Of a stretch of 64,000 nt of DNA, positions 20,647 through 44,359 are shown piece by piece. The stretch is from an uncultured Alphaproteobacteria bacterium (lineage in GTDB: Bacteria; Pseudomonadota; Alphaproteobacteria; HIMB59; GCA-002718135). Numbering within the stretch: the first letter of the stretch is position 1; each line of letters starts with the position of its first letter. The notes under the pieces are model-generated. The model made no database searches. It saw only the letters and a list, made by a program, of their open reading frames with translations, and was not told where the DNA came from. Position numbers and translations under genes: made by a program. The stretch covers positions 12,794 to 76,793 of the forward strand of contig CACJSL010000002.1 in NCBI GenBank assembly GCA_902596065.1. The letters are read 5' to 3'.

Positions 20647-20664
20647 ATTGAATATCCATTCAAT
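20647..20664. promoter_or_regulatory. Operator/promoter palindrome copy a: A-TTGAAT-atcc-ATTCAA-T
   Basis: Exact inverted repeat, core 20648-20663, centred in the 55-bp gap between the Rieske gene (ATG 20627, minus strand) and the FAD oxidoreductase (ATG 20683). It ends 19 nt before the + strand ATG; TATAAG lies at 20671-20676. Confidence 0.55.
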
Positions 20665-20682
20665 GAAATTTATAAGTATCTA

Positions 20683-22017
20683 ATGGCAGGTTTATACCAT
20701 CCGGATATATATAAATTTGAAAAACCTATAAATAGTTATTGGGAAACAACTGCTGATACAAAAAATCAATATAACAAATTGAAAGAAGATATTCATACAA
20801 ATATATTGGTTATTGGAGGTGGTTATACAGGCATATCTTGTGCTTTAAGTTTATCAAAAAAATATAATGAAGAAGTTGTCATAGTTGAAGCAGGTCATAT
20901 TGGTTGGGGATCCTCAGCGAGAAACGCAGGTTTTTGCTGTATACCTCCTGCGAAAATGTCCGTATCAAAAATGTTTAAGAAATATGGAAAAGAAGAAACT
21001 AAGAAATTTTTTCAAAATACAATTGAAGGATCAAATTTTACAAAAGATTTAATATCAGAATACAATATTGATTGTGACTTAACTGGAAATTGTAATTATG
21101 AAGTTGCCCCACATCCTGACTACTTTCAATCCATTAAAAAAGAAGCAGATGTGTATAAAAAAGAATTTGGAATAGAAACAGAAATATATTCTCAATCAGA
21201 ATTTAATGAAATAGGACATACAGGTGAAGAACAATTTGGGGCTTTTTCTTATAAACCTGGATTTGCAATTAATCCTTTAAAATTTTTACTTGGATTAGCT
21301 AAAGAAGCAAAAAAGTCTGGTGTTAAAATTTATCAAAAAAGCAAAGTTAGCAAAATAGAAAAAAAGAATGGAAAGTATAATATTATAATAAATGAAAACA
21401 AAATAACATCGAATAAAATAGTTATGGCCACTAATGGATTTTATAGAGATGACTTATTTCCAAAACTTAATAATAGAATACTTCCTGTAATATCTAATAT
21501 TATTATTACAAAACCACTTACAAATGATCAAATTATGGCTCACAATTTTGTTACACACAACCCTATCTTAAATAATAGAAATTTACTTTTTTATTATAGA
21601 TTATTAAAAGATAATCGTTTCTTATTTGGTGCTAGAGGTGATTTAGTTGGAAGTGAAGAGTCTTCTTTAATAAAATCAAAAAAAATGGAACAACAAATGA
21701 AAAAAGTTTTTCCTGAATGGAACAATGTTGAAATTGATTATCATTGGCGAGGTCTTGTGGCCGTAACTACAAAATTTACTCCTTCAATTGGAAAGTTAGA
21801 TGATGATGAAATTTACTATAGTTTTGGTTATCAAGCAAATGGGGTTAATACTGCCCCTTGGTCTGGTAGTAAACTTGCAAATTTAATTGTATCAAATAGT
21901 AAAGAACTTAATATTTCAAAATTTTATCAAGGATTACCAAAAAAGTTTCCTTTTCCAAAATTAAGACTATTTTATCTTAAGATGTATTTAGCATATCATT
22001 CATTAAGAGATAAATAA
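20683..22017 (+). CDS. DAO-family FAD-dependent oxidoreductase (second PuuB/PauB-like paralogue)
   Basis: NILVIGGGYTGISCAL dinucleotide fold of DAO type. I prefer the ATG at 20683 (MAGLYHPDIY...). The track TTG at 20644 would overlap the divergent gene and the palindrome. Confidence 0.8.
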   Translation: MAGLYHPDIYKFEKPINSYWETTADTKNQYNKLKEDIHTNILVIGGGYTGISCALSLSKKYNEEVVIVEAGHIGWGSSARNAGFCCIPPAKMSVSKMFKKYGKEETKKFFQNTIEGSNFTKDLISEYNIDCDLTGNCNYEVAPHPDYFQSIKKEADVYKKEFGIETEIYSQSEFNEIGHTGEEQFGAFSYKPGFAINPLKFLLGLAKEAKKSGVKIYQKSKVSKIEKKNGKYNIIINENKITSNKIVMATNGFYRDDLFPKLNNRILPVISNIIITKPLTNDQIMAHNFVTHNPILNNRNLLFYYRLLKDNRFLFGARGDLVGSEESSLIKSKKMEQQMKKVFPEWNNVEIDYHWRGLVAVTTKFTPSIGKLDDDEIYYSFGYQANGVNTAPWSGSKLANLIVSNSKELNISKFYQGLPKKFPFPKLRLFYLKMYLAYHSLRDK

Positions 22018-22050
22018 ACTTATGAAAATTACCAATTAGTTAATCTTATA

Positions 22051-23823
22051 ATGAAAACTTTTAAACCTTTATTATATTTAATGCCATATTTATGGCCTAA
22101 AAATAATAAAAATTTTAAAATAAGATTGATTTTAGCAATATGTTTTTTAATCTTTGCCAAATTAGCAAATGTTTCTGTGCCAATTTTTTTAGGGAAAGCC
22201 GTTGATTCATTAGATGGGCTTAATAAAAATTCTTTAATCATCTTTGTCCCTATAGTTTTTATTGCCGCTTATGGAATTGCAAGATTTTTGCATGTTGGTT
22301 TTGGTGAAATACGAGATGCTTTATTTGCAAGAATTGGACAAAATGCAATTAGAAGAGCTGCCTTAAAAGTATTTGAGCATCTTCATAATTTATCATTAAA
22401 ATTTCACTTAAATAGACAAACAGGAGCTTTAAGTAGAATTATAGACAGAGGAATAGGTGCAATAGATTTTATACTTCGCTTTGTAACATTTAATATTTTT
22501 CCAACATTATTAGAAATGATTTTAGTTTGTCTTATTCTTTTAAATTTATTTAGTTGGTATTTCTCAATTATTACTTTTTTTGTAATCCTTTTTTACATAT
22601 CTTTTACATTTATAGTGACAGAATGGAGAGTTCAAATTAGAAAAAAAATGAATGATGCTGATAATGTTAGAGGTCAAAAATCTATTGATAGTTTATTAAA
22701 TTATGAAACAGTAAAATACTTTAATAATGAAAATTTTGAATCTTCAAATTATGATAAATCTTTAGAAGAATATGAAAAATTTGCTATCAAAAGTGCAATA
22801 AGTTTAAATTTTTTAAATTTAGGACAAGCATTAATTATCACTATTGGAATAATTGTAATGATGGTCCTAACCGTATATGAAATTCAATCAAATAAAATGA
22901 GTATTGGTGATTTCATTATAGTCAATACCTATTTAATTCAATTATCTATTCCCTTAAACTTTATAGGTTTTGTATATTGGCAAATCAAACAATCTTTAGT
23001 TGATATGGAAAATATGTTTACTCTTTTAAATGAAAAAACAGAAATAACAGACAATATTCATGCAAAAGATTTAATAATTTCAGATGCATCAGTTACCTTT
23101 AAAAATGTTTCTTTTCATTATGATGAAAAAAGAAAAATTATTAAAGATATATCTTTTAAGATTTATCCTAATCAAACTGTCGCAATAGTGGGACCTACTG
23201 GTGCAGGAAAATCAACAATAAGTAAAATTTTTTTTAGATTTTTTGATCCTATCTCTGGGTCAATATTAATTGATAATCAAGATATAAGAAAAGTAACACA
23301 AAAATCTCTTCGCGAACAAATTGCTGTAGTACCTCAAGATACTGTCTTATTTAATGAAACTTTATTTTATAATATTTCTTATGGCAATCCAAATTCCTCT
23401 AAAGAAGAAATTGTTCAAGTTACAAAAATGGCAAAATTACATGACTTTATTGAGAACCTACCTGATGGATATAATACTATAGTTGGAGAAAGAGGTTTAA
23501 AACTTTCTGGTGGTGAAAAACAACGAGTTGCTATAGCAAGAGCCTTACTAAAAAAACCTAAAATTTTCTTTTTTGATGAAGCCACTTCTTCGTTAGATAC
23601 AAAAACAGAAAAAGAAATTCAAAATAATCTTGAACATTTATCAAAAAATATAACAACCATAATAATAGCTCATAGACTTTCTACTGTTAAAAATGCTGAT
23701 AATATAATTGTATTAGATAATGGAGAAATAGCTGAGACAGGAAATCACAGAAGATTATTAGAGCTTAATGGTTTATATTCAAACCTTTGGAAACAACAAG
23801 AAAAAAACTTTAAAGATAAGTAA
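22051..23823 (+). CDS. ATM1/HMT1-type ABC exporter (fused permease + ATPase)
   Basis: 590 aa with six N-terminal TMS, Walker A GPTGAGKST, signature LSGGEKQRVAIARAL and Walker B IFFFDEATS. Confidence 0.85.
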   Translation: MKTFKPLLYLMPYLWPKNNKNFKIRLILAICFLIFAKLANVSVPIFLGKAVDSLDGLNKNSLIIFVPIVFIAAYGIARFLHVGFGEIRDALFARIGQNAIRRAALKVFEHLHNLSLKFHLNRQTGALSRIIDRGIGAIDFILRFVTFNIFPTLLEMILVCLILLNLFSWYFSIITFFVILFYISFTFIVTEWRVQIRKKMNDADNVRGQKSIDSLLNYETVKYFNNENFESSNYDKSLEEYEKFAIKSAISLNFLNLGQALIITIGIIVMMVLTVYEIQSNKMSIGDFIIVNTYLIQLSIPLNFIGFVYWQIKQSLVDMENMFTLLNEKTEITDNIHAKDLIISDASVTFKNVSFHYDEKRKIIKDISFKIYPNQTVAIVGPTGAGKSTISKIFFRFFDPISGSILIDNQDIRKVTQKSLREQIAVVPQDTVLFNETLFYNISYGNPNSSKEEIVQVTKMAKLHDFIENLPDGYNTIVGERGLKLSGGEKQRVAIARALLKKPKIFFFDEATSSLDTKTEKEIQNNLEHLSKNITTIIIAHRLSTVKNADNIIVLDNGEIAETGNHRRLLELNGLYSNLWKQQEKNFKDK

Positions 23824-23856
23824 TGAAAAAAAAGATGATTTTTTTTTTAGAAAATG

Positions 23857-23867
23857 TACAAGTTGTA
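23857..23867. promoter_or_regulatory. Short palindrome TACAA-G-TTGTA upstream of aguA
   Basis: An 11-bp palindrome 18 nt upstream of the aguA ATG (23885). Low information content in AT-rich DNA. Confidence 0.15.
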
Positions 23868-23884
23868 AAGTTTCAAATAACTAA

Positions 23885-24928
23885 ATGAGCACACCTAAAG
23901 AAAAAAAATTTTACATGCCTCCTGAATGGCATCCACATACATGTTGTTGGATGCAATGGCCTTATAATAATCCTAAACATGATGGATATGGAACTGTTCC
24001 CTCTTGGTCTCATTTTGATTTTGACAAAGGTCGACTAGCATGGTCTAATGTGGCTAATTCTATTGCTAAATTTGAAAAAGTTAAAATGATTGTTCATCCT
24101 GATGAAATATCAAAAGCAAAGAAATTGTTAAATTCTGAAATTGAAATTATTCAACTAAAAATTGATGATTGTTGGGCAAGGGATAGTGGAGCTATTTTCT
24201 TATTAAATAAAGAAAATAAACTTGGTGGTATTGATTGGGAATTCAATGGATGGGGTAAATTTAAACCTTTTGACTCTGACAATAAAGTTGCGAAATTTAT
24301 GATAGAAAATTCATCAGCTACTTATTTTAAAAATAATATGATCTTAGAAGGAGGTTCTATTCATGTTGATGGAGAAGGAACACTTTTAACCACAGAACAA
24401 TGTTTGCTTAATAAAAATAGAAATCCACAATTATCTAAGGAAGAAATTGAAAAAAATTTAAAAGAATATCTAAATGTAAATAAAGTAATCTGGCTTAAGA
24501 GTGGCACTGACGAAGGAACGGATGGTCATGTTGATAATATTGCCTGTTTTGTAAAACCTGGAGTTGTTATGGCTTTATCCTGTAAAGATAAAAGTGATCC
24601 TTTTTTTGAAAAAATTAATGAAAATTTAGAAATATTAAAAACATCAACTGATAATAAGGGTAGATTAATAAATGTCATTGAATTAGAAATGTCTTATAAA
24701 AGACTTATACCAAATAATGATGAACCAAGTTCTTATATAAATTACTATATTGCAAACAATGGAATAGTAATGCCGAGTTTTGATGATCAAAAAGCAGATT
24801 TAAATGCTCAATCTATTATAGAATCAGTCTTTCCTGATAGGAAAATTATTGTTATTAATGGAATTGATATTTGTTTGGGCGGAGGTAATGTTCATTGTAT
24901 AACTCAACAACAACCTCTAAGTTCATAA
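23885..24928 (+). CDS. aguA: Agmatine deiminase
   Basis: 347 aa. FYMPPEWHPH..CWMQWP N-terminus, and C-terminal GGGNVHCITQQQP with the catalytic Cys. Confidence 0.9.
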   Translation: MSTPKEKKFYMPPEWHPHTCCWMQWPYNNPKHDGYGTVPSWSHFDFDKGRLAWSNVANSIAKFEKVKMIVHPDEISKAKKLLNSEIEIIQLKIDDCWARDSGAIFLLNKENKLGGIDWEFNGWGKFKPFDSDNKVAKFMIENSSATYFKNNMILEGGSIHVDGEGTLLTTEQCLLNKNRNPQLSKEEIEKNLKEYLNVNKVIWLKSGTDEGTDGHVDNIACFVKPGVVMALSCKDKSDPFFEKINENLEILKTSTDNKGRLINVIELEMSYKRLIPNNDEPSSYINYYIANNGIVMPSFDDQKADLNAQSIIESVFPDRKIIVINGIDICLGGGNVHCITQQQPLSS

Positions 24929-24947
24929 TAGATAAAGAGAGAAAAAT

Positions 24948-25817
24948 ATGAAAATCAAAGTTGCTGCAACTCAAATGTCTTGCACTTGGGAAATTGAAGA
25001 AAATATTTCAAAAGCAAAAAAACTTATTTATGAAGCAGCTAAAAAAGGTGCGAATATAATTTTACTTCAAGAATTATTTCAAACTCCATATTTTTGCATT
25101 CAATATGATGAAGAAATTTTTAAGTTAGCACAGACTTATGAAAATAATAATGTTCTAAAAGAAATGTCAAGTTTAGCAAAAGAATTAAATGTTGTGCTTC
25201 CAATTAGTTTTTTTGAAAAAGACAACAATGCATATTTTAATTCTATTGCAGTAATTAATTCAGATGGAAACATACTTGGTAAATATCGTAAATCTCACAT
25301 ACCTGACGGTGCTGGTTATTTAGAAAAATACTATTTTAATCCGGGCAATACTGGTTTTGAAGTATGGGATACAGCTTTTGGAAAAATTGGTATTGGTATC
25401 TGTTGGGATCAATGGTTTCCAGAAGCTGCAAGAATTATGGCACTTAAAGGAGCTGAAGTACTATTTTATCCTACAGCAATTGGTGATGAGTTAATGAGTG
25501 AATATGACAGCTCCGGAGCATGGCAAAGAGTTATGCAAGGTCATGCAGCTGCAAATATAATGCCAGTAGTGGCATCTAATAGAATTGGTTCTGAGTCAGT
25601 AAAAGGTCAAGTTAATGGATTTTATGGAAAGTCTTTTATTTGTGATCGATCAGGTAAAATTATTAAAGAAGCATCAAAAGAAAAAGAAGAAATTATTTTG
25701 GCAGACATAGATACTGAAGAAAATCATTTATTTAGAAGAAATTGGGGACTTTTTAGAGATAGAAGAACAGATTTGTATAAAGAGATATTAACTCTTGAAG
25801 GTAAAATTAAAGATTAA
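24948..25817 (+). CDS. aguB: N-carbamoylputrescine amidase (nitrilase superfamily)
   Basis: 289 aa with a Glu-Lys-Cys triad context: ILLQELF, YRKSHIP, GIGICWDQWFPE. It is adjacent to aguA. Confidence 0.9.
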   Translation: MKIKVAATQMSCTWEIEENISKAKKLIYEAAKKGANIILLQELFQTPYFCIQYDEEIFKLAQTYENNNVLKEMSSLAKELNVVLPISFFEKDNNAYFNSIAVINSDGNILGKYRKSHIPDGAGYLEKYYFNPGNTGFEVWDTAFGKIGIGICWDQWFPEAARIMALKGAEVLFYPTAIGDELMSEYDSSGAWQRVMQGHAAANIMPVVASNRIGSESVKGQVNGFYGKSFICDRSGKIIKEASKEKEEIILADIDTEENHLFRRNWGLFRDRRTDLYKEILTLEGKIKD

Positions 25818-27192
25818 GATACCATTTATATTCAATATCAGAAATTTCAGAACGAAAAGATTCGATTTCCTTTCTTTTTAAATCAGCATACATTGTTACA
25901 TATTCTTTTGAATAATAATCAATACAAAATTTTGAGTCTTCAAATAACCCAATAGCTTTTTCAATTGACTTGGGCATTTCAGGATCGGGGTCAGTGCAAG
26001 CATTATCAATTCTCAATTTTGTAGGAGATAGTTTATTTATAAGACCATAATGAATTCCAGATAAAATAGCCGAAAGAACTAAATAAGAATTAGCTTCAGC
26101 TCCTGCTACTCTATGTTCAATCCTTTTAGATTTTTCATCACTTCTTGGTATTCTAAAAGCTACTGATCTATTGTTGGGACCCCATGAATTATTTACAGGA
26201 ACAAATTGATCAGGCTCAAAACGTCTATAAGAATTTACATTAGAAGCAAAAATTAAAAAATTATCATATAATGTCTTTTGTAAACCACCAATTGCATAAT
26301 GTAATTGTTCACTTCCCTCATCTTTATCTCCAGAAAAAATATTTTGATTTTTTTCATCAAACAAACTTATATGAACATGCATACCACTGCCTGTTTGCTC
26401 AATAAATGGTTTAGAAATAAAACTTGCCTCATAATCATGTTTAATTGCAGTTTCCTTTATTACTCTTCTAAGCAAAGCAGAGTCATCTGCAGCTTTAAGA
26501 ATATCATTGGTATGATTTAAATTTATTTCAAATTGTCCTGGAGCAAATTCTGATGAGGCAGTTGATGCAGGAATATTTTGTATTTTACAAAATTCATTAA
26601 CATCTTCTAAAAAATCATAAAATTCATCTAATTCTCGCATTCCATAAACCTGAGTTCCTTCACTCTGTTTATTAGTTTCATTTGATATTGCTGGTTCTGG
26701 TTTTTCAGAAATATTTTTTCTTTTTTTAAAAAGATAAAATTCTAATTCAAAAGCAACTTTAAATTGTAAATTTAAATCTTCAATTCGACTTAAAACGCTA
26801 GCAAGTACATTTCTTGGATCTATAATAGAGCTATATCGTGAATCATCTTGAATTGTTATCAAAACTTGCCCTAAAGAATCTTTATGCCATGGCATTTTTT
26901 TTAAGGTTCCAGCTACGGGAAAATAAGTTGCATCTGGATCTCCATCAGTAAAACCTCTTCCAGCTGCATCAGGACAATAGCCAGTAACATCTAATAAAAA
27001 AGTAGAATAACAAAATTGAATTCCTGACTTAAAAAGTTTTTGAGCATCGTTAATAGGCAATCTTTTGCCTCTAATAACGCCTGATAAGTCGCTTAAAATA
27101 GCATCAATATATTTAATTTCAGGATTTTTTTCTTTAAAAGAATCAAATTCATCGATTGTTGCTAGTAAAACTTTGTTATTTTGAAAAGTCAT
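25807..27192 (-). CDS. Glutamine synthetase-family gamma-glutamyl-amine ligase (second PuuA/PauA-like paralogue)
   Basis: 461 aa with ELEFYLF, SSEFAPGQFEINL, GSGMHVHISL, NRSVAFRIP, EHRVAGAEANSYL. Confidence 0.85.
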   Translation of the reverse strand: MTFQNNKVLLATIDEFDSFKEKNPEIKYIDAILSDLSGVIRGKRLPINDAQKLFKSGIQFCYSTFLLDVTGYCPDAAGRGFTDGDPDATYFPVAGTLKKMPWHKDSLGQVLITIQDDSRYSSIIDPRNVLASVLSRIEDLNLQFKVAFELEFYLFKKRKNISEKPEPAISNETNKQSEGTQVYGMRELDEFYDFLEDVNEFCKIQNIPASTASSEFAPGQFEINLNHTNDILKAADDSALLRRVIKETAIKHDYEASFISKPFIEQTGSGMHVHISLFDEKNQNIFSGDKDEGSEQLHYAIGGLQKTLYDNFLIFASNVNSYRRFEPDQFVPVNNSWGPNNRSVAFRIPRSDEKSKRIEHRVAGAEANSYLVLSAILSGIHYGLINKLSPTKLRIDNACTDPDPEMPKSIEKAIGLFEDSKFCIDYYSKEYVTMYADLKRKEIESFRSEISDIEYKWYLNL

Positions 27193-27215: not shown

Positions 27216-27231
27216 TTGAATGTCTATTTAA
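27216..27231. promoter_or_regulatory. Operator/promoter palindrome copy d: TTGAAT-gtct-ATTtAA (one mismatch)
   Basis: It lies in the 58-bp gap between the GS-like gene (minus strand, ATG 27192) and the amidase (ATG 27251). Extended arms TTAATTGAAT / ATTTAATTAA match 9 of 10. It ends 19 nt before the amidase ATG. Confidence 0.42.
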
Positions 27232-28726: not shown

Positions 28727-28803
28727 AAATTGTTATTTTTTATTGAAATTTTCTCAAATTGTTGTTCATATAGCAATTAATTAATTTTTTTATTGGGGGT
28801 AAA

Positions 28804-29912: not shown

Positions 29913-29950
29913 AAAATAGCCTGCTCTCTTTCTGAGGCAGGCTATTTTTT
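29913..29950. terminator. Bidirectional intrinsic terminator between the convergent SBP and potA-like genes
   Basis: AAAA-TAGCCTGC-(12-nt loop)-GCAGGCTA-TTTTTT: an 8-bp GC-rich stem (29917-29924 / 29937-29944) flanked by an A run and a T run. The potA-like stop codon lies inside the 3' arm. Confidence 0.75.
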
Positions 29951-31024: not shown

Positions 31025-31030
31025 AATTTA

Positions 31031-34584: not shown

Positions 34585-34612
34585 AAAAAGCTTGATTTTA
34601 CAAGAAATTTGG

Positions 34613-34628
34613 TTGAATGGTCATTCAA
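34613..34628. promoter_or_regulatory. Operator/promoter palindrome copy b: TTGAAT-ggtc-ATTCAA (exact; extended TTGAATG-gt-CATTCAA)
   Basis: It lies in the 63-bp gap between the TetR gene (minus strand) and the divergent flavoprotein operon. It ends 19 nt before the ATG at 34648; TATAAG lies at 34634-34639. Confidence 0.6.
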
Positions 34629-37739: not shown

Positions 37740-38941
37740 TGAATAAAGAAAAAATTTCATATAAAAAACCTCTATTAGAAACACCTTTTCATAAAAGAAC
37801 ATCTGAGCATTGTTATGCAAATGATTGGTATAGATGGGCTGGTTACAAAGTTGCCAAAGAATACTCCTCAACTGAACTTGAATATACTTCAATGAGAAAC
37901 ACTGCAGGAGTAATAGATATAACTCCAATGCATAAATATGAAATTAAAGGTAAAGATGCAAAAAAATTTATTAATAAATTAATTACAAAAAATATTACTA
38001 ATATTCAATCTAATCAAGTAGCCTACGGCATATGGTGCAATGAAGATGGAATGGTGATTGATGATGGAACAATATTTTGCTTAAACGAAAATCATTATAG
38101 AATTTTTTGCGCTGAGAGAAATCTTAATTGGTTTTGTGATACAGCTACTGGATTTAATGTAACTATTGAAGATATAAGCTCATCAATTGCTGCTTTAGCT
38201 TTTCAAGGTCCTTTATCTTGTAAAATTTTAAATCTTTTAAAAGTAGAAAATATAGAAAACCTTAAACCTTTTCATTTTGATAATTACAAACTTGAAAATC
38301 AAAATGTCACAATTTCAAGAACAGGCTTTTCTGGAGATTTAGGTTATGAAATATGGTGTGACCCTTCTCAGGCTATCGATGTATGGGACAGCTTATTTAA
38401 GTTTAACAGAGATTATAAAGTACTTGCTGCTGGAATGAACTCACTTGAGATGGTGAGAATTGAAGCAGGATTTATCCAACCAAATGCAGATTTTATGTCT
38501 GCAGAACAGGCTTTAAGACCAAATAGAATGAGAAACCCATATGAATTAGGTTTAGGTTGGTTAGTAAATCTAGATAAAGAGTATTTTACTGGGAAACAGG
38601 CTTTAATTAGACACAAAGAAAAGGGGCCTGAAAAAAAACTTGTAGGATTGGATGTTGAGGGAGATAAGCCTGCTGTGGGATCTGTCCTCTATGATAATAG
38701 TAAGAAAAATATAGCCAAAGAAATTGGTATAGTGACAGCAGCAATGTGGTCCCCTGTTCTTAAATCTAATATTGCAATTGGATTTGTTAACAAAGAATAT
38801 TATAAGTTAGGATCTAATGTTTATGCTGAAATTTACCATCCAGAAGAATTGGATTATAGAAAAATTTGGGCTGAATGCAAAGTGGTAAAAAAGCAATTTT
38901 TTAACAATCCAAGAAGGAATGCTATTCCTGCATTTATATAG
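37739..38941 (+). CDS. GcvT-family aminomethyltransferase-like folate-binding protein
   Basis: 400 aa. TPFHKRT, AGVIDITPMHKYEIKGKDA, LAFQGP, ISRTGFSGDLGYEIW and LRIEAGF are typical GcvT/DmdA-family blocks. Its ATG overlaps the upstream stop (TAATG). Confidence 0.85.
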   Translation: MNKEKISYKKPLLETPFHKRTSEHCYANDWYRWAGYKVAKEYSSTELEYTSMRNTAGVIDITPMHKYEIKGKDAKKFINKLITKNITNIQSNQVAYGIWCNEDGMVIDDGTIFCLNENHYRIFCAERNLNWFCDTATGFNVTIEDISSSIAALAFQGPLSCKILNLLKVENIENLKPFHFDNYKLENQNVTISRTGFSGDLGYEIWCDPSQAIDVWDSLFKFNRDYKVLAAGMNSLEMVRIEAGFIQPNADFMSAEQALRPNRMRNPYELGLGWLVNLDKEYFTGKQALIRHKEKGPEKKLVGLDVEGDKPAVGSVLYDNSKKNIAKEIGIVTAAMWSPVLKSNIAIGFVNKEYYKLGSNVYAEIYHPEELDYRKIWAECKVVKKQFFNNPRRNAIPAFI

Positions 38942-38953
38942 GATAGATATTAT

Positions 38954-40105
38954 ATGGAATTTAATCTTTCAGAAGAACAGAATCTTTTAATTGATACTAC
39001 TAAATCATTCGTAAAAGCAGAATTATTGCAACATGAAGAACTATTAGAAAAAACAAATAATTTACCAAAAGAATTATATGATGAAATTAAGAAAAAAAGT
39101 ATTGAAGCAGGCTTATATGCTTGCAATATGCCAACTGAACATGGTGGTGGTGGCTTAAATGCTTTTGATTTAACCTTGGTTGAAAAACATCTAGGATTTG
39201 CATCACTTGCTTTAGCAGAAATTGCTTGGAGACCACAAAATATCTTAATGGCCTGCGAAGGTGAACTAGTAGATGAATACTTAAAACCGGCTATTACTGG
39301 AGAGAGAAAAGATTGTATTGCTATGACTGAACCTGGCGCTGGTTCAGATTTAAGAGGTATGAAAACGAAAGCAGTTAAAGATAGAAATGATTGGATTATT
39401 AATGGAACAAAACATTTTATATCTAATGCTCACATCTCTGACTTTGTTGTTCTTTTTGCTTCAACAGGTGAAGATGATAAAGGTAGAAATTCACTTTCTT
39501 GTTTTTTAGTTGATTTAAAACAAAAAGGAGTTGAAGTTGCTAAAGGATATGACTGTGTCTCTCACAGAGGATATGTAAATAATATTATACATTTTAATGA
39601 TTGTAGAATTCCTGGAAAAAATATTCTTGGAGAAAAAGATAAGGGTTTTGAATTAATGAATGTTTGGTTGGAAGCTACTAGATTAACTGTTGCGGCTACA
39701 TCGGTATCTAGAGCAGAAAGAGCTTTTGATATCGCTTTGGATTGGTCAGCTAATAGAAAACAATTTGGAAAAGTCATTGGAAAATTTCAAGGTGTTTCAT
39801 TTAAACTAGCTGATATGGCTACAGAAATTAAATTAGCAAATTTAATGTTAATGGAATCAGCTTGGAAGATTGATCAAAAAACATTAACTTCCCAAGATGC
39901 TGCAATGACAAAATTATTTTGCACTGAAATGTTAAGCAGAGTTTCAGATGAAGCAATTCAAATTTGTGGTGGAATGGGATTAATGGCAGATATACCTCTT
40001 GAAAGAATATGGCGTGATGCAAGAATAGAAAGAATTTGGGAAGGGACAAGTGAAATTCAACGGCATATTATTTCACGTTCTTTATTAAGACCCCTTGGAG
40101 CATAA
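38954..40105 (+). CDS. Acyl-CoA dehydrogenase
   Basis: 383 aa with EFNLSEEQ, CIAMTEPGAGSDL, QFGKVIGKFQGV, ICGGMGL and RIERIWEGTSEIQR. Confidence 0.9.
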   Translation: MEFNLSEEQNLLIDTTKSFVKAELLQHEELLEKTNNLPKELYDEIKKKSIEAGLYACNMPTEHGGGGLNAFDLTLVEKHLGFASLALAEIAWRPQNILMACEGELVDEYLKPAITGERKDCIAMTEPGAGSDLRGMKTKAVKDRNDWIINGTKHFISNAHISDFVVLFASTGEDDKGRNSLSCFLVDLKQKGVEVAKGYDCVSHRGYVNNIIHFNDCRIPGKNILGEKDKGFELMNVWLEATRLTVAATSVSRAERAFDIALDWSANRKQFGKVIGKFQGVSFKLADMATEIKLANLMLMESAWKIDQKTLTSQDAAMTKLFCTEMLSRVSDEAIQICGGMGLMADIPLERIWRDARIERIWEGTSEIQRHIISRSLLRPLGA

Positions 40106-40108
40106 TCT

Positions 40109-42145
40109 TTGAACTTAAAAAAACTTTTTAGACCAAAAAGCTTGGCTATAATAGGAGGCTATTGGGCAGACTTTGTTTATGATGGTAACAAAACTATTGG
40201 TTATAAAGGTAAAGTTTGGCATATAAATCCTTCACGAAAAAGCACCAAAAGAAAAAAATATTATAAAAATATTAAAGATCTACCAGAAATACCTGATTGT
40301 GTTTATCTTGCCGTTTCAAGAGATCAAACTGTAAAATTAATTAAAGATATATCTAATATGGGTGTTGGAGGAACAGTTTGCCTGGCTTCAAGATTTTCTG
40401 AACTTAATTCAAAAGAAGGAAAAGATAAAACTAATGAACTTATAAAAAACTCTGGTAAGATGCCTTTTCTGGGACCAAATTGTTATGGATTTATCAATTA
40501 TTTAGATAAAATTTCTGTATGGTCAGATCAAGTTTCTGGGAAACCAACAAAAAAAGGTGTTGCTATTATATGTCAGAGCGGAACAATTGGTAATACTATT
40601 AGTTTTAACAATAGATCTTTGCCTATTGGCTACATAATTTCTTTAGGTAATCAATCAAAAATAACCATTGAAGATGCAATTAATTATGCCCTTGATGATA
40701 ACAGAGTAACCGCCATTGGTATTTACGCCGAAAGTTTTACTAATACTGCAAAATTAATTAAAGTATTTAAAAAATCTAAGTTAAAGAACATACCTATAGC
40801 TATAGTCAAAGTAGGCAGATCTAAAATTGCATCTAAAACAATTCTAACACATACTGGCTCTCTTAGTGGGAAAGAAGATATTTATGATTCTTTGTTTCAA
40901 AGAATGGGGGTAGCAAAATGCAATACATTAGGCGAATTATGTGAAATTTTAAAATTATTTCATACACATGGAGTTTTAAAAGATGATCAAATTTCAATAA
41001 TGGGACCATCTGGAGGAGATATGGCTATGATAGGAGATGTGGCAGAATCTTTATCATTAAAATTTGGCAAAATACCTCCAAAAATAAAAAATGATTTAAA
41101 AAAAGTTAATCACCCAAGCGTGATAATATCAAATCCTTTTGATTTACAAACATACAATTGGAATGATCCTGAGAATCTAGAAAAAACATTTAAATTAATA
41201 TTCAAAACAAATTTTGCTTTAAATGCACTGATGTTAGATCTTCCAAATGTAGAAGATTGTGATACTGAAGAGTGGGATGCAATAGTTGATAAATTTATAA
41301 AATCTTCAAAAATAAAAAAAAATGGAGCAATTATTTCTTCACTTTCAGATACTCTTCCAAAATATTTAAGAGAAAAATGTCTAAAGTATAACGTTGTTCC
41401 TCTTCAAGGCATGTCAGAAAGCTTATTAGCTATAAGTAATTCAATAAAAATTGGCAAAGTATGGAAGAATTTTGCTGGTATAAAAATTCCTGAGAAAATA
41501 CCAAATCTTAAAAAGAAAATAAAAACATATTCAGAATATGAATCAAAGTTAATTTTAAAGAAAAACAAAATACCTATTCCAAAATCCTTAGTTACAAATA
41601 AAAAGAATATATTGCGTGATTCTAAAAAAATTGGATTTCCTTTAGTGGCAAAAATAAATTCAAATACAGTTTTTCATAAAACTGAAATTGGAGGTGTTGT
41701 AACAAATATTAATAGTGAAAAAGAATTAAAGAAAAAAACAAATAAATTTACTGGTAATATCTTAATTGAAAAAATGATAACTGATAATGTCTTTGAAATG
41801 ATTATAGGAATAAAAAACGATAATGAATTTGGTCCTACTATAATTTTAGGAGCTGGAGGAATTTATACTGAATTATTTAAAGATACAACCACCCTACTCT
41901 TACCTTTAACTAAAAGAATGATTATGGAAGAGATAAAAAAACTAAAATTTAGTAAAATATTATTTGGTTTTAGAGGAAAAAATAGTGGTGATTTAGATGC
42001 TTTAGTTTGTTCAATATTAAAAATTGCTAAATTTGCTGAAAATAATTATGATAAAATTTCAGAAGTTGATATAAATCCATTAATAGTTTGTAAAAAAGGC
42101 AAAGGGGTGTTTGCTGTAGATGCATTAATACATTATTTTAAATAA
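40109..42145 (+). CDS. ADP(NDP)-forming acyl-CoA synthetase, fused alpha/beta (CoA-binding + ligase-CoA + ATP-grasp domains)
   Basis: 678 aa. N-terminal LFRPKSLAIIGG CoA-binding fold, GPNCYGFIN, and a C-terminal ATP-grasp (E.ESK.IL....IPIP..., GFPLVAKI). TTG start 3 nt after the ACAD stop. Confidence 0.8.
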   Translation: MNLKKLFRPKSLAIIGGYWADFVYDGNKTIGYKGKVWHINPSRKSTKRKKYYKNIKDLPEIPDCVYLAVSRDQTVKLIKDISNMGVGGTVCLASRFSELNSKEGKDKTNELIKNSGKMPFLGPNCYGFINYLDKISVWSDQVSGKPTKKGVAIICQSGTIGNTISFNNRSLPIGYIISLGNQSKITIEDAINYALDDNRVTAIGIYAESFTNTAKLIKVFKKSKLKNIPIAIVKVGRSKIASKTILTHTGSLSGKEDIYDSLFQRMGVAKCNTLGELCEILKLFHTHGVLKDDQISIMGPSGGDMAMIGDVAESLSLKFGKIPPKIKNDLKKVNHPSVIISNPFDLQTYNWNDPENLEKTFKLIFKTNFALNALMLDLPNVEDCDTEEWDAIVDKFIKSSKIKKNGAIISSLSDTLPKYLREKCLKYNVVPLQGMSESLLAISNSIKIGKVWKNFAGIKIPEKIPNLKKKIKTYSEYESKLILKKNKIPIPKSLVTNKKNILRDSKKIGFPLVAKINSNTVFHKTEIGGVVTNINSEKELKKKTNKFTGNILIEKMITDNVFEMIIGIKNDNEFGPTIILGAGGIYTELFKDTTTLLLPLTKRMIMEEIKKLKFSKILFGFRGKNSGDLDALVCSILKIAKFAENNYDKISEVDINPLIVCKKGKGVFAVDALIHYFK

Positions 42146-42149
42146 TTAT

Positions 42150-42926
42150 ATGAATAAACCTATAAAAACTAAAATTGAAGGATCAATATTAGAAGTAACA
42201 ATTGATCGTCCAAAAGCGAACGCTATAGACTCTAAAACTAGCATAATATTAGGAGATATTTTTGCTGATTTTAGAGATAATCCTAAACTTAAAGTTGCTA
42301 TAATAACTGGAGGTGGTGAAAAATTTTTTTCTGCTGGATGGGATCTTAAAGCTGTAAATGAAGGAGAAGCTGCTGATGCAGATTATGGCGTAGGTGGATT
42401 TGGAGGATTGCAAGAATTACCAAATATGAATAAACCTATTATTTCTGCTGTTAATGGTATTGCGTGTGGAGGTGGTTTTGAAATCATGATTTCAGCAGAT
42501 ATTATTATTGCTGCAGATCACGCTACTTTTGCTTTACCTGAAATTAATGTTGGTGTCATAGCTGATGCGGCAACTATAAAACTAAGAAGAAGAATTCCCT
42601 ATCATGTAGCTGTCGAATTTTTAATGACAGGTAGGTGGATGGATGTCAAAGAAGCAAAGCACTGGGGTTTAGTTAATGAAATAGTTGATAAAAAAGATTT
42701 ATTAAAAAGATCCTGGGAAATTGCTGATAAAATTTCAAAAGGGCCTAATTTAATATATTCATCAATCAAAGAAGTTTTAAGAGAAACAGAAAATGAAAAG
42801 GAGATACCTTCTTTTGATATTCTTCGATCCTTAGAAACTGTAAAGAAAGTTTATGGAAGTGAAGACTTAAAAGAAGGTGCCTCTTCTTTTGTAAAAAAAA
42901 CTGATCCAAATTGGAAAGATAAATAG
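42150..42926 (+). CDS. Crotonase-superfamily hydratase, CaiD (carnitinyl-CoA dehydratase)-like
   Basis: 258 aa. The blocks [52 protein letters not shown] and [12 protein letters not shown] closely track the E. coli CaiD sequence as I recall it ([53 protein letters not shown]). Confidence 0.8.
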   Translation: [258 protein letters not shown]

Positions 42927-42947
42927 TTAACAATTTTAATTATTTCA

Positions 42948-42968
42948 TTGAATGCTCATTCAGTGAAT
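42948..42968. promoter_or_regulatory. Operator/promoter palindrome copy c: TTGAAT-gctc-ATTCAg, plus a third half-site (ATTCA-g-TGAAT)
   Basis: It lies in the 56-bp gap between the crotonase stop (42926) and the aminotransferase ATG (42983). The 16-bp core 42948-42963 ends 19 nt before the ATG. An overlapping second palindrome spans 42958-42968. Confidence 0.5.
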
Positions 42969-42982
42969 GATAAAACTACTTA

Positions 42983-44359
42983 ATGAAAAACGATTATATT
43001 AGTGAAATTCATAAAAAAGATAGATTAGTTCTTCATCCTTATGAAGATACAAATACAAGAGGAACATATAACCGTAAACTAATTACAAAATCAGATAATA
43101 TTTATTTATATGATGAAAATGGGACTGAATATATTGATGGTCCTGGAGGAATGTGGTGTAATAATATTGGCCACGGCAATAAGGAAATTGGAGAAGCCGT
43201 AAAAAAACAACTTGAAAAATTAGAATATTGTAGTCCTTTTTCAGAATCTACTGAAATATCAGCTGAATTAGCTTCGGTTTTATCAGAGTTATCTCCCGGT
43301 GATCTGAATACAGTTTTTTTTACCACCGATGGATCAACTGCAAATGATACTGCTTTAAGATTTATAATGTTTTATAATAATATGCTAGGTCGTCCTAATA
43401 AAAAACATATCATTACAAGAAATAAAGCTTATCACGGCAGTACCTATTTAACAGGATCAATAACTGGGAAAGATAGAGAAAAAAATAATTTTGATTTTGA
43501 AAAAGATTTTATACATCATTTAAGTGCTCCTTTAGAGTATAGAAGAAAAGATAATCAAACTGTGGAAGAGTTTTGTGATGATCTAGTGAAAGAATTTGAA
43601 AATAAAATTCTTGAGCTTGGTTCTGAAAATGTCGCTGCTTTTATAGCAGAACCTATTATGGCATCTGGAGGATGTATTGTTCCACCAGAGGGTTATTTAA
43701 AAAGAATTTGGGAAATTTGTAAAAAAAATGATGTACTTTTTATATCTGATGAAGTTGTTACTGGCTTTGGAAGAATAGGTCATTTTTTTGCTTCAGAAAA
43801 AGTATTTGGAGTAACACCTGACATTATAACTTGTGCTAAAGGTATCACTTCAGGATATATGCCTTTGGGTGCTGTTTTATTTTCAGATAAATTGCTTAAT
43901 GATCTTAAAAATGATTCTGCTCTTTTTTTTCATGGATATACATATTCTGGTCACCCCGCTTGTTGTGCAGCAGCATTAAAGAATATAGAAATTATTAAAA
44001 GAGATAAAATTCTTGAACATGTTCAAAATATAGAACCTTACTTTCATCAACAATTAAAAAAATTATACGATTTACCAATTGTAGGAGATATAAGAGGCAA
44101 AGGACTTATGGCTGGAATAGAATGCGTGATTAATAAAGACAGTAAAGAGGCTCTAGTATTAGATAAAGCTATAGGTTCTAGAATTGATGAAGAGTCATTA
44201 AAATTGGGATTAATAATTCGTCCACTTTATCATATATGTGTTTTATCTCCTGCTTTAATTATTTCAAAAAATCAAATTGATACACTTGTAGATAAATTAT
44301 ATTTAGCAATTAAAAATACAATAACACAATTAGAAGTAGAGGGCTTATGGAAAGGTTAA
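42983..44359 (+). CDS. Class III (omega) pyridoxal-phosphate aminotransferase
   Basis: 458 aa with AYHGSTY, FIAEPIMASGG, LFISDEVVTGFGRIGHFF and TCAKGITSGYMPLG (PLP-binding Lys). Confidence 0.9.
   Translation: MKNDYISEIHKKDRLVLHPYEDTNTRGTYNRKLITKSDNIYLYDENGTEYIDGPGGMWCNNIGHGNKEIGEAVKKQLEKLEYCSPFSESTEISAELASVLSELSPGDLNTVFFTTDGSTANDTALRFIMFYNNMLGRPNKKHIITRNKAYHGSTYLTGSITGKDREKNNFDFEKDFIHHLSAPLEYRRKDNQTVEEFCDDLVKEFENKILELGSENVAAFIAEPIMASGGCIVPPEGYLKRIWEICKKNDVLFISDEVVTGFGRIGHFFASEKVFGVTPDIITCAKGITSGYMPLGAVLFSDKLLNDLKNDSALFFHGYTYSGHPACCAAALKNIEIIKRDKILEHVQNIEPYFHQQLKKLYDLPIVGDIRGKGLMAGIECVINKDSKEALVLDKAIGSRIDEESLKLGLIIRPLYHICVLSPALIISKNQIDTLVDKLYLAIKNTITQLEVEGLWKG

What the first reader, a model, noticed from the sequence alone, without database searches (positions are those of the whole stretch)
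20647..42985. TTGAAT-N4-ATTCAA palindrome occurs four times, each ending exactly 19 nt before an ATG: one promoter/operator module linking about 30 kb into a putative regulon
The four copies, read directly from the sequence:
- (a) 20648-20663 TTGAATatccATTCAA
- (b) 34613-34628 TTGAATggtcATTCAA
- (c) 42948-42963 TTGAATgctcATTCAg
- (d) 27216-27231 TTGAATgtctATTtAA

Each copy lies in a non-coding gap at the head of a + strand transcription unit. In all four the palindrome ends exactly 19 nt before the A of the ATG (20683, 34648, 42983, 27251).

In that fixed register the left half-site sits where a -35 hexamer belongs. A -10-like TAnAAn follows after about 17 nt (TATAAG, TAAGAA, TAAAAC; TAAAGT one nt earlier in d). 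Only about 6 nt then remain before the ATG, and no Shine-Dalgarno sequence is present. The predicted mRNAs are therefore leaderless or nearly so, and a protein bound to the palindrome would occlude the promoter.

Copy (b) sits between a BetI-like TetR gene and its divergent operon, the classic autoregulatory position.

Rough estimate: assuming about 70% A+T, an exact match to the 12 specified bases is expected about 0.04 times in 64 kb.

The four units plus the tetR-ACAD-potBCA unit cover more than 20 genes (about 19.4-46.6 kb). That is a very large regulon for a streamlined genome.
Basis: partly seen in the sequence, partly recalled or inferred. Interest (0 to 1): 0.88.

Follow-up and report, generated by a model that had tools for sequence, protein, structure and literature searches.

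The report
TetR repressor sites on four promoters
A 16-base palindrome found four times in an amine-degradation gene cluster of a marine HIMB59/AEGEAN-169 bacterium is very probably the binding site of the BetI-like TetR repressor encoded beside it; it lies over promoters set so close to the start codons that the mRNAs probably have almost no leader, which makes this a real but ordinary kind of local regulon.

Summary
All four TTGAAT-N4-ATTCAA copies are at the stated coordinates. Each lies in a 55-63 nt non-coding gap and ends 19 nt before an ATG. For 57 starts, 0.0012 such sites are expected at one fixed offset.

The window comes from the HIMB59/AEGEAN-169 clade, not from SAR11 proper.

Conservation in related sequences:
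- Site b is exact in 22 of 23 orthologous tetR gaps.
- Site a is exact in 41 of 42 orthologous gaps.
- Site c is present in 17 of 18.
- Site d is present in only 7 of 10.
- Every exact match in 640 kb of related DNA lies at site a or site b.

The same palindrome also sits next to distant homologues of this TetR (31-38% identity) in alphaproteobacteria with up to 68% G+C. That ties the site to the protein.

The 19 nt distance is not invariant; it ranges from 18 to 24 nt in relatives. What is fixed is a -10-like hexamer 17 bp after the left half-site, followed by 5-6 unconstrained bases and then the ATG. This is the geometry of a leaderless promoter, but no transcription start site has been mapped.

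The operator is not the canonical betI box, and the protein scores below the BetI cut-offs.

Verdict: a new member of a known kind (a TetR repressor with operators overlapping promoters), governing about 23 genes. Interest is moderate.

The parts
20648..20663 (.). Operator a, TTGAATATCCATTCAA. It lies in the 55 nt gap between the Rieske oxygenase gene (- strand) and the FAD oxidase gene (+ strand).
   Evidence: Exact in 41 of 42 orthologous metagenome gaps.
20635..20676 (.). Conserved, mirror-symmetric block around operator a: TATAnn, 7 nt, palindrome, 7 nt, TATAnn. The + strand -10-like hexamer TATAAG is at 20671-20676. The mirror hexamer, read on the - strand, is at 20635-20640.
   Evidence: Both hexamers sit at a fixed 7 nt from the palindrome in all distinct orthologous sequences. 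The bases after them vary.
27216..27231 (.). Operator d, TTGAATGTCTATTTAA (1 mismatch). It lies in the 58 nt gap between the GlnA-like gene (- strand) and the amidase gene (+ strand). The -10-like TAAAGT is at 27238-27243.
   Evidence: Kept in 7 of 10 loci that have the amidase. Disrupted by a 4 nt insertion in L003 and L004, and absent in L020. Retained in L007 and L022, where the amidase is degraded.
34613..34628 (.). Operator b, TTGAATGGTCATTCAA. It lies in the 63 nt gap between tetR (- strand) and the CrtI-like oxidoreductase operon (+ strand). -10 candidates are TATAAG at 34634-39 and TAAGAA at 34636-41.
   Evidence: Exact in 22 of 23 HIMB59-type loci, with 1 mismatch in L020. The tetR ATG is a constant 28 nt away in all 23 loci.
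34595..34624 (-). Candidate tetR promoter: ATGACC, 18 nt, TAAAAT. Its -35 lies in the centre of operator b.
   Evidence: This is a consensus match only; that scan finds no more promoter-like sites than in shuffled sequence. TAAAAT is not kept in L011-L013 and L015.
42948..42963 (.). Operator c, TTGAATGCTCATTCAG (1 mismatch). It lies in the 56 nt gap between the CaiD-like gene and the class III aminotransferase gene, which run in the same direction. It marks an internal promoter.
   Evidence: Present in 17 of 18 loci. Absent in L010, which lacks the caiD to ACAD2 segment.
42968..42976 (+). Extended -10-like element TGaTAAAAC (TGnTAnnnT in relatives). The hexamer starts 17 bp after the left half-site of operator c.
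   Evidence: The gaaTGnTA core is fixed in all 17 loci. The distance to the ATG is 19 or 22 nt.
33931..34584 (-). The proposed repressor: a TetR-family regulator with a BetI-type C-terminal domain.
   Evidence: Pfam TetR_N and TetR_C_6. NCBIfam BetI models score 101.7 bits against a cut-off of 201.3, and 97.6 against 118, so both are below cut-off.
29942..33928 (-). Remainder of the tetR unit: acyl-CoA dehydrogenase, potB, potC and potA.
   Evidence: Gaps between genes are 2-22 nt.
34648..42926 (+). Unit b(+): two CrtI/amine-oxidase-like flavoproteins, a GcvT-like demethylase, an acyl-CoA dehydrogenase, an ADP-forming acyl-CoA ligase and a CaiD-like hydratase.
42983..46555 (+). Unit c(+): class III aminotransferase, MFS transporter, GNAT acetyltransferase and a 189 aa protein of unknown family.
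20683..25817 (+). Unit a(+): FAD (DAO-type) oxidase, MsbA-like ABC exporter, agmatine deiminase and N-carbamoylputrescine amidase.
   Evidence: Gaps between genes are 33, 61 and 19 nt. Whether all four genes share one transcript is inferred.
19395..20627 (-). Unit a(-): GbcA-like Rieske oxygenase, divergent from operator a.
   Evidence: The mirror-image -10 box is conserved.
25807..27192 (-). Unit d(-): GlnA-like (gamma-glutamyl-polyamine synthetase-like) gene, divergent from operator d.
27251..29892 (+). Unit d(+): amidase and a PotF/PotD-like binding protein.
   Evidence: The 77 nt gap before potF has its own GGGGG Shine-Dalgarno-like run and no operator. Co-transcription is therefore uncertain.

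Best explanation
The palindrome, whose fuller consensus is A-TTGAAT-R-NN-Y-ATTCAA-T, is the operator of the BetI-like TetR-family repressor encoded at 33931-34584.

**Proposed mechanism**
- Without its ligand, a TetR dimer binds each of the four operators and stops RNA polymerase from using the promoters that overlap them.
- In this clade, the half-site on the far side from each regulated gene doubles as the -35 hexamer (TTGAAT).
- A -10-like hexamer follows after a 17 bp spacer, and the ATG comes 5-6 nt later. This accounts for the 19 nt distance: 17 + 6 + 6 - 10 = 19.
- Transcripts would therefore start at or within a few bases of the start codon. No Shine-Dalgarno sequence is present and there is no room for one.
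- At the three divergent gaps (a, b, d) the same bound dimer would also block the oppositely oriented promoter, including that of tetR itself (autoregulation).
- An amine-type ligand would release the repressor. It is most likely a methylated or quaternary amine, a polyamine, or a CoA-thioester intermediate of their breakdown.
- About 23 genes in seven units (19.4-46.6 kb) would then be switched on, for uptake and catabolism of polyamine and betaine/carnitine-type compounds.

**Shown**
- The sites, and their conservation in related sequences.
- Their exclusive placement in these gaps.
- Their co-occurrence with the TetR subfamily.
- The fixed spacing between half-site and -10 box.

**Inferred**
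- Binding by this protein, and repression.
- Leaderless starts.
- The identity of the ligand.
- The operon boundaries.
For: **Sites and chance**
- Four sites lie at one fixed offset before gene starts.
- P is about 8e-14 for that arrangement.

**Conservation in orthologous gaps**
- Site b is exact in 22 of 23 loci whose TetR is 66-100% identical.
- Site a is exact in 41 of 42 gaps whose downstream protein is 68-100% identical.
- Site c is present in 17 of 18 loci.
- All 63 exact matches in 418 + 221 kb of related DNA are at site a or site b.

**Link to the regulator**
- It is the only transcription factor recognised among the cluster genes and the ten further window proteins scanned.
- It sits in the classic divergent, autoregulatory position.
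- Homologues at 31-38% identity carry the same palindrome just upstream of tetR, or upstream of a potFBCA-tetR operon. These include Acidimangrovimonas (68% G+C, exact TTGAATGACCATTCAA), Sulfitobacter, Shimia (two loci), Anderseniella, a Kordiimonadaceae MAG and an uncultured alphaproteobacterial MAG. L040, titled a gammaproteobacterial MAG, has degenerate copies with 1-2 mismatches.
- Relatives that lack the motif differ at one position of the presumed recognition helix: LSHG instead of LS[Q/L/I/T/V]G.

**Promoter geometry**
- Site a: ATTCAA, tgaaatt, TATAnn, then 5-6 variable nt and the ATG, in 42 of 42 gaps. A mirror-image box is present on the other side in 26 of 26 distinct sequences.
- Site c: TGnTAnnnT at the same offset in 17 of 17 loci.
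- The alternative upstream promoter has no conserved -35.

**Shine-Dalgarno and gap sizes**
- Shine-Dalgarno-like motifs precede only about 7 of 57 genes in the window.
- Divergent gaps are 55-89 nt.

**Precedent**
- BetI1 of Ruegeria pomeroyi protects a palindrome that covers the -35 box (PMC12442346).
Against: - No binding, expression or transcription-start data exist for any of these sites.
- The -10 candidates are weak in places. At site b they are TAAGAA with a 17 nt spacer, or TATAAG with a 15 nt spacer. The sixth base of the hexamer at site a is T in only about two thirds of sequences.
- In DNA with 28% G+C, promoter-like hexamers occur at the chance rate: 85 found against 89.7 in shuffles.
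- In the G+C-rich relatives the palindrome lies downstream of a separate TTGACn -35 box, around +1. The overlap with the -35 is therefore not a conserved property of the system.
- Site d is degenerate or missing in several lineages.
- Only 64 kb of this genome was available, so sites elsewhere in the genome, or a second regulator sharing the motif, cannot be excluded.
Confidence: 0.8

Rival explanations
1. Same repressor and operator, but a different promoter geometry. The promoter lies upstream of the palindrome, for example TTATCA, 17 nt, TATAAT at 20614-20642. Transcription would start inside the palindrome and the repressor would act at about +1. The mRNAs would carry a 33-35 nt leader without a Shine-Dalgarno sequence, and that leader would include the palindrome.
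For: - A near-perfect TATAAT lies 5 nt upstream of operator a in 28 of 31 distinct orthologous sequences. The promoter scan also picked it up.
- G+C-rich relatives clearly use this layout: TTGACn, about 17 nt, then the palindrome.
- The right-hand box reads TATAAA on the other strand, so the symmetry of site a fits this model too.
Against: - No -35-like hexamer is conserved 16-18 nt upstream of that TATAAT. Best matches to TTGACA are 2-4 of 6, the same as background.
- There is no TG extension before it.
- Sites b and d have no -10 candidate in the equivalent position; they read AAGAAA and GAAAAA there.
- The model does not explain why the distance from the right-hand box to the ATG is held at 5-6 nt while its sequence is free.
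Confidence: 0.2
2. The palindrome is the site of a different DNA-binding protein, for example a Crp/FNR/FixK-type regulator that recognises TTGA-N6-TCAA boxes. Its position next to tetR would then be coincidental.
For: The arms TTGA...TCAA resemble FNR/FixK boxes. This resemblance is from general knowledge and was not tested against a curated matrix.
Against: - The arm spacing is TTGA-N8-TCAA at all sites, not N6.
- The motif travels with homologues of this TetR across genomes of 30-68% G+C.
- It is absent from relatives whose TetR has a different recognition-helix residue.
- No other regulator was found among the cluster genes and the ten further window proteins scanned.
Confidence: 0.03
3. 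The palindrome acts at the RNA level, as a small hairpin in the transcripts (a processing, stability or attenuation signal), rather than as a DNA operator.
For: - The mismatches at sites c (A16 to G) and d (C14 to T) both keep wobble pairing on the + strand.
- The site c hairpin is more stable than shuffled sequence: -8.9 kcal/mol, z = -2.54.
- Site c lies inside a co-directional gene string and could be transcribed by read-through.
Against: - The hairpins at sites a, b and d are no more stable than shuffles (z = 0.16, 0.01 and -0.91).
- There is no run of T after any of them.
- There is no Rfam match in 18-48 kb.
- The half-sites are invariant rather than co-varying across 60 or more orthologous copies.
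- The same sequence is kept in genomes of very different G+C content, next to a DNA-binding protein.
Confidence: 0.03
4. Chance: recurrence of an A+T-rich palindrome in A+T-rich intergenic DNA.
For: With up to 1 mismatch, the window count (6) is only modestly above the shuffle mean (2.36; 3 of 100 shuffles reach 6).
Against: - The fixed offset before four starts has P of about 8e-14.
- There are 63 of 63 exact matches at orthologous positions in related DNA.
- An exact copy is present in a genome with 68% G+C.
Confidence: 0.01

Closest known systems
BetI, the choline-responsive TetR-family repressor of the bet genes (E. coli; BetI1 of Ruegeria pomeroyi DSS-3, PMC12442346)
   Same: - The domain pair is the same: TetR_N plus the BetI-type TetR_C_6.
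- BetI models are the best NCBIfam hits.
- The operator is palindromic with ATTGA...TCAAT arms and covers the -35 box.
- The regulator gene sits at the regulated cluster and is presumably autoregulated.
- The targets are genes of quaternary-amine metabolism.
   Different: - Scores fall below both BetI cut-offs: 101.7 against 201.3 bits, and 97.6 against 118.
- The canonical betI box is ATTGACG*CGTCAAT, i.e. TTGA-N4-TCAA. Here the arms are 4 bp further apart (TTGA-N8-TCAA).
- No betA, betB or betT genes are nearby.
- There are four operators and about 23 genes, rather than one divergent pair of operons.
BetI2 of Ruegeria pomeroyi (PMC12442346)
   Same: - It is a BetI paralogue whose boxes do not match the betI consensus.
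- It uses two overlapping palindromes in a divergent gap, covering the -35 boxes of both promoters.
- Site c here likewise has a third half-site that forms a second, overlapping palindrome: CATTCA-G-TGAATG at 42957-42969.
   Different: - The box sequence is different (shared flank AAACTTGAAC).
- Whether two dimers bind here is unknown.
- Here the regulon spans several operons.
RutR, the TetR-family pyrimidine-utilisation repressor of E. coli (box recalled from memory as TTGACCAnnTGGTCAA; not checked here)
   Same: The operator geometry is the same: 16 bp, TTGA-N8-TCAA. It too is a nitrogen-catabolism regulon with several operators.
   Different: - The inner half-site bases differ: AAT here, ACC in RutR.
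- No RutR structure appeared among the PDB sequence hits at E <= 1e-3.
- The resemblance is a lead from memory, not a tested result.
Leaderless genes with a sigma-70 promoter placed directly at the start codon, as described in Caulobacter and actinobacteria (general knowledge)
   Same: - The -10-like hexamer ends 5-6 nt before the A of an ATG.
- There is no Shine-Dalgarno sequence.
- The start codon is ATG in all orthologues examined.
   Different: Nothing is mapped here, and no transcription-start data for HIMB59/AEGEAN-169 were found.

Membership tests
TetR-family repressor with a palindromic operator | N-terminal TetR helix-turn-helix domain plus a ligand-binding C-terminal domain | tested here: met
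   Pfam TetR_N (36.6 bits against a cut-off of 24) and TetR_C_6 (42.9 against 27).
TetR-family repressor with a palindromic operator | Inverted-repeat operator of about 15-20 bp next to the regulator gene, overlapping promoter elements | tested here: met
   A 16-18 bp palindrome lies 28 nt from the tetR ATG in 23 of 23 loci. It overlaps -35 and -10 candidates.
TetR-family repressor with a palindromic operator | Operator and regulator occur together across taxa | tested here: met
   Eight distant loci (TetR 31-38% identical, 45-68% G+C) carry the palindrome at the head of tetR or of its operon.
TetR-family repressor with a palindromic operator | Specific binding of the protein to the site, relieved by a ligand | not testable with these tools
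   Requires EMSA or footprinting with the purified protein.
BetI proper (choline-responsive bet repressor) | Protein reaches the curated BetI family score | tested here: not met
   TIGR03384: 101.7 bits against a cut-off of 201.3. NF001978: 97.6 against 118.
BetI proper (choline-responsive bet repressor) | Operator matches the betI box (ATTGACG*CGTCAAT type, TTGA-N4-TCAA) | tested here: not met
   All sites are TTGA-N8-TCAA. The box sequence is from PMC12442346. Its logo figure could not be read.
BetI proper (choline-responsive bet repressor) | Linked betA, betB or betT genes | tested here: not met
   Neighbouring genes encode CrtI-like flavoproteins, GcvT-like protein, acyl-CoA dehydrogenases, CoA ligase, CaiD-like protein and PotABC.
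Crp/FNR/FixK box | TTGA-N6-TCAA spacing | tested here: not met
   The spacing is N8 at every site.
Leaderless transcription unit | -10 hexamer ending about 6 nt before the A of the start codon, with a -35 box 17 bp upstream | tested here: met
   Site a: 42 of 42 gaps. Site c: 5 of 17 at that distance and 12 of 17 three nt further. Site d: 7 of 7. Site b is ambiguous.
Leaderless transcription unit | AUG start codon and no Shine-Dalgarno sequence | tested here: met
   The start is ATG in all orthologues, and no GGAG/AGGA-type motif is present in the 19 nt. This is weakly discriminating, because only about 7 of 57 genes in the window have a Shine-Dalgarno-like motif anyway.
Leaderless transcription unit | Mapped 5' end at the start codon | not testable with these tools
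   No transcription-start data are available. A literature search found none for this clade.
Structured RNA element, terminator or riboswitch | Match to a curated RNA family, unusual stability, or covariation | tested here: not met
   There is no Rfam hit. Three of four hairpins are no better than shuffles. The stems are invariant, not co-varying.

The most novel reading that the evidence does not exclude
The 16 bp palindrome is a three-in-one element produced by genome streamlining. Its two half-sites would serve as the -35 hexamers of two overlapping, oppositely directed promoters that both give leaderless or nearly leaderless mRNAs. The mirror-symmetric block at site a fits this: TATAnn, 7 nt, palindrome, 7 nt, TATAnn. 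The whole palindrome would also be the binding site of the single repressor. One dimer in a 55-63 bp gap would then switch two divergent units. In this way one uncharacterised TetR subfamily, conserved across marine Alphaproteobacteria, would coordinate polyamine and quaternary-amine catabolism in AEGEAN-169.
Probability: 0.3. Interest if true: 0.55.

Novelty: new member of a known kind. Interest (0 to 1): 0.35.

Why it matters
- HIMB59/AEGEAN-169 and SAR11-type bacterioplankton are abundant. They are described as having few canonical regulatory systems (PMC10308909).
- A concrete and testable regulator, operator and regulon would show which of their nitrogen-rich substrate pathways are inducible rather than constitutive. 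The genes involved are for polyamine and betaine/carnitine-type compounds.
- The regulon also gives a defined gene set to follow in metatranscriptomes.
- The same operator and TetR pair occurs in cultured relatives: Shimia gijangensis DSM 100564 and Acidimangrovimonas pyrenivorans KCTC 62192. The ligand and the mechanism can therefore be established in tractable strains.
- The promoter geometry is a specific prediction of leaderless expression in a genome poor in Shine-Dalgarno sequences.
- None of this changes how TetR regulation is understood.

Tried and rejected
- **Consensus promoter and terminator scan.** It found 85 promoter-like sites against 89.7 in shuffles, so it is uninformative at 28% G+C. 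It is used only as a pointer.
- **Literature search for the motif string.** It returned only unrelated papers.
- **Literature search for leaderless or start-site data in this clade, and for a TetR linked to butyrobetaine/BKACE pathways.** Neither returned anything usable.
- **Window-wide test for TAnnnT at -12 of gene starts.** There are too few operon heads and start-codon calls are uncertain, so there is no usable signal. Whether leaderless expression is general in this genome is left open.
- **The apparent 19 nt ATG next to the palindrome in the Kordiimonadaceae locus L028.** The ATG is followed directly by TAA, so it is a coincidence.
- **My own first reading that site a has 19 nt in all 42 gaps.** It was wrong. 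Counted properly, the numbers are 20 at 19 nt and 22 at 18 nt.
- **Canonical betI box identity.** Rejected on arm spacing.
- **FNR/FixK box.** Rejected on arm spacing.
- **Search for a variant TTGA-N8-TCAA motif in the 14 distant loci without the palindrome.** None was found at the operon heads. These paralogues probably use another operator.

Full report
**1. The observation**

A pattern search finds TTGAAT-N4-ATTCAA exactly at 20648 and 34613, and with one mismatch at 27216 and 42948. Two further one-mismatch hits, at 24231 and 41190, lie inside ORFs. Direct reading confirms that each of the four copies ends 19 nt before an ATG (20683, 34648, 42983, 27251). It also confirms the quoted -10-like hexamers.

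With up to one mismatch, 1.3 (composition) or 2.4 (shuffles) are expected, against 6 observed. The count alone is therefore not compelling.

The placement is compelling. Four of 57 gene starts carry such a site at one identical offset, where 0.0012 are expected (P about 8e-14). No other intergenic gap in the cluster has anything closer than four mismatches.

**2. Gene context**

| Coordinates | Strand | Product |
|---|---|---|
| 19395-20627 | - | GbcA-like Rieske oxygenase |
| operator a | | |
| 20683-25817 | + | DAO-type flavoprotein, MsbA-like ABC protein, agmatine deiminase, N-carbamoylputrescine amidase |
| 25807-27192 | - | GlnA-like (gamma-glutamyl-polyamine synthetase-like) |
| operator d | | |
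| 27251-29892 | + | amidase, PotF/PotD-like binding protein |
| 29942-34584 | - | potA, potC, potB, acyl-CoA dehydrogenase, tetR |
| operator b | | |
| 34648-42926 | + | two CrtI/amine-oxidase-like flavoproteins, GcvT-like protein, acyl-CoA dehydrogenase, ADP-forming acyl-CoA ligase, CaiD-like hydratase |
| operator c | | |
| 42983-46555 | + | class III aminotransferase, MFS transporter, GNAT acetyltransferase, one unknown protein |

- The regulator has TetR_N plus the BetI-type TetR_C_6 domain. It scores below both NCBIfam BetI cut-offs.
- Its nearest solved structure is an uncharacterised structural-genomics entry (3e7q, E = 7.5e-11).
- None of the ten further window proteins scanned with Pfam looks like a transcription factor.
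- Just downstream lie a thioesterase, a BKACE enzyme and a dehydrogenase, none preceded by the motif.
- Taken together, the enzymes point to uptake and breakdown of polyamines and of betaine/carnitine-type compounds. This is an inference from the family names.

**3. Origin of the window**

A scan of one genome per species with the TetR protein returned 45 loci. The best hits are single-cell genomes and MAGs labelled HIMB59, at 30-32% G+C. The window is therefore of the HIMB59/AEGEAN-169 type. The assignment of that clade to the Pelagibacterales is disputed (PMC10308909).

**4. Conservation in orthologous gaps**

*Site b*
- It is an exact palindrome in 22 of the 23 HIMB59-type loci (TetR 66-100% identical), with one mismatch in the last.
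- The tetR ATG is always 28 nt away.
- The distance to the CrtI-like ATG is 19 nt in 17 loci, 18 nt in 3, and 20, 23 and 24 nt once each.

*Site c*
- It is present in 17 of 18 loci. It is absent only from L010, which has lost the caiD to ACAD2 segment.
- Its G at position 16 is conserved.
- It is followed at a fixed distance by gaaTGnTAnnnT, an extended -10-like element.
- The ATG then follows at 19 nt (5 loci) or 22 nt (12 loci).

*Site d*
- It is kept in 7 of 10 loci that have the amidase.
- It carries a 4 nt insertion in the spacer in L003 and L004, and is absent in L020.
- It is missing or degenerate where the amidase is missing (L010, L011, L014, L023).
- It is retained in L007 and L022, where the amidase is only a remnant. 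Site d therefore probably serves the divergent GlnA-like gene as well.

*Site a*
- A metagenome scan with the downstream flavoprotein gave 42 loci that include the gap.
- The palindrome is exact in 41 of them.
- The sequence after it is ATTCAA, tgaaatt, TATAnn, where the hexamer is TATAAT, TATACT, TATAAA, TATAAG or TATAGT. Then come 5 or 6 bases of unconstrained sequence, then the ATG. The distance from palindrome to ATG is 19 nt in 20 loci and 18 nt in 22.
- My first impression, that all are 19 nt, was wrong.

*Specificity*
- In 418 kb of genome loci and 221 kb of metagenome loci, every one of the 63 exact matches lies at site b or site a.

**5. Link between site and protein**

- Among 22 distant homologues of the TetR (26-38% identical, 43-68% G+C), eight carry the same palindrome.
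- In six it lies immediately upstream of tetR:
  - L037 Acidimangrovimonas, 68% G+C, exact TTGAATGACCATTCAA
  - L042 Sulfitobacter
  - L036 Anderseniella
  - L034 Shimia
  - L028 Kordiimonadaceae
  - L040, titled a gammaproteobacterial MAG, where the copies are degenerate (1-2 mismatches)
- In two (L041 Shimia, L044) it lies upstream of a potFBCA-tetR operon.
- In such genomes an A+T-rich 12-of-12 match is very unlikely to occur by chance.
- The motif-bearing proteins have LS[Q/L/I/T/V]G in the presumed recognition helix. Twelve of the fourteen relatives without the motif have LSHG there; the other two have ITAG.
- The conserved neighbours are a DAO-GcvT fusion of the dimethylglycine-dehydrogenase type or Pot-type transporters. 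Both again point to amine substrates.

**6. Geometry and mechanism**

It does so if the left half-site is the -35 hexamer and transcription starts at the A of the ATG.

Points in favour:
- The half-site to hexamer distance is invariant at sites a and c. The bases after the hexamer are free in sequence but confined to 5-6 nt at site a.
- Site a is mirror-symmetric. On the other strand the palindrome is followed by tcaatat-TATAnn in 26 of 26 distinct sequences, then 6-20 nt to the Rieske ATG.
- This is the only arrangement that fits all four sites.

The rival layout places the conserved TATAAT 5 nt upstream of operator a as the -10, with a start inside the palindrome and a 33 nt leader. It has no conserved -35: matches to TTGACA are 2-4 of 6, equal to background. 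It also has no counterpart at sites b and d.

It cannot be dismissed, however. G+C-rich relatives do place a TTGACn box about 28-30 nt upstream, with the palindrome around +1. Hexamers of this kind are also abundant by chance in this DNA.

In either layout the operator overlaps core promoter elements, so steric repression is the expected mode. This was shown for BetI1, whose footprint covers the -35 box (PMC12442346).

Shine-Dalgarno-like motifs precede only about 7 of 57 genes in the window, and divergent gaps are 55-89 nt. Very short leaders may therefore be common here. I could not test this rigorously.

**7. Rivals at other levels**

- An RNA hairpin is unlikely. Three of the four hairpins fold no better than shuffles, there is no run of T, there is no Rfam match, and the stems are invariant rather than co-varying.
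- The wobble-compatible mismatches at sites c and d, and z = -2.54 for site c, are noted but are weak evidence.
- An FNR/FixK-type site is excluded by arm spacing (N8, not N6) and by the co-occurrence with the TetR.

**8. Comparison with what is known**

- This is how TetR-family repressors work in general. The closest named relative is BetI.
- It is not BetI. It scores below the family cut-offs, there are no bet genes, and the operator arms are 4 bp further apart than in the betI box ATTGACG*CGTCAAT.
That was not tested.
- Site c has a third half-site (CATTCA-G-TGAATG). This recalls the two overlapping palindromes bound by BetI2.

**9. Verdict**

- The regulon comprises four operators, seven units and about 23 genes, if the divergent genes are counted and the operon boundaries are as inferred.
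- Binding by this protein, the leaderless starts and the ligand are predictions.
- The system is a new, uncharacterised member of a well-known kind. It is useful for marine microbiology and readily testable, but not surprising in principle.

Noticed in passing
window 42957-42969: Operator c has a third half-site. CATTCA-G-TGAATG forms a second palindrome that overlaps the right arm of the first (CATTCAGCGAATG in most relatives). Weaker versions follow sites a (CATTCAATGAAAT) and b, and the site in L037 (CATTCAATGGATG). This may mean that two dimers bind.
   Followed up: partly
L003 and L004, orthologues of window 27216-27231: In two lineages site d reads TTGAATgtctatgtATTTAA. A 4 nt insertion in the spacer should abolish dimer binding. 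It looks like an operator in decay.
   Followed up: partly
L007 about 16092 and L022 about 16120 (orthologues of site d): The amidase gene downstream of site d is reduced to a remnant, yet the palindrome is kept. This suggests that site d mainly serves the divergent GlnA-like gene in these genomes.
   Followed up: partly
window 38954-42926 and 46561-48976: An acyl-CoA dehydrogenase, an ADP-forming CoA ligase, a CaiD-like hydratase, a 4HBT thioesterase, a BKACE enzyme and a dehydrogenase lie together. As I recall it, this set resembles the gamma-butyrobetaine/carnitine degradation route of Sinorhizobium. The GcvT/ACAD/ligase/hydratase string also parallels the logic of DmdABCD. The BKACE unit has no operator.
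   Followed up: no
window 29893-29941: The convergent gap between potF and potA holds a G+C-rich hairpin (AGCCTGC...GCAGGCT) flanked by runs of A and T. It looks like a bidirectional terminator closing both units.
   Followed up: no
whole window: Only about 7 of 57 predicted genes have a Shine-Dalgarno-like motif. Divergent gene pairs are separated by only 55-89 nt, and TATA-like boxes often lie 4-12 nt before the ATG. Very short leaders, or none, may be general in this genome.
   Followed up: partly
TetR residues about 50-57 (window 33931-34584, - strand) and homologues in L024-L045: The residue after the conserved LS in the presumed recognition helix separates motif-bearing proteins (Q, L, I, T or V) from most relatives without the motif (H in 12 of 14). 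It is a candidate specificity determinant.
   Followed up: partly
L034, L036, L037, L041, L042, L044, upstream of the palindrome: G+C-rich relatives share a TTGAC[T/G/C] box 28-30 nt upstream of the palindrome. L037 and L042 also share the stretch aaatcaaga. The promoter layout therefore differs from that of the HIMB59 clade.
   Followed up: partly
window 28790-28803: potF is preceded by GGGGGTAAA-ATG, one of the few strong Shine-Dalgarno-like runs in the window, and by a 77 nt gap without an operator. It may have its own expression signals.
   Followed up: no
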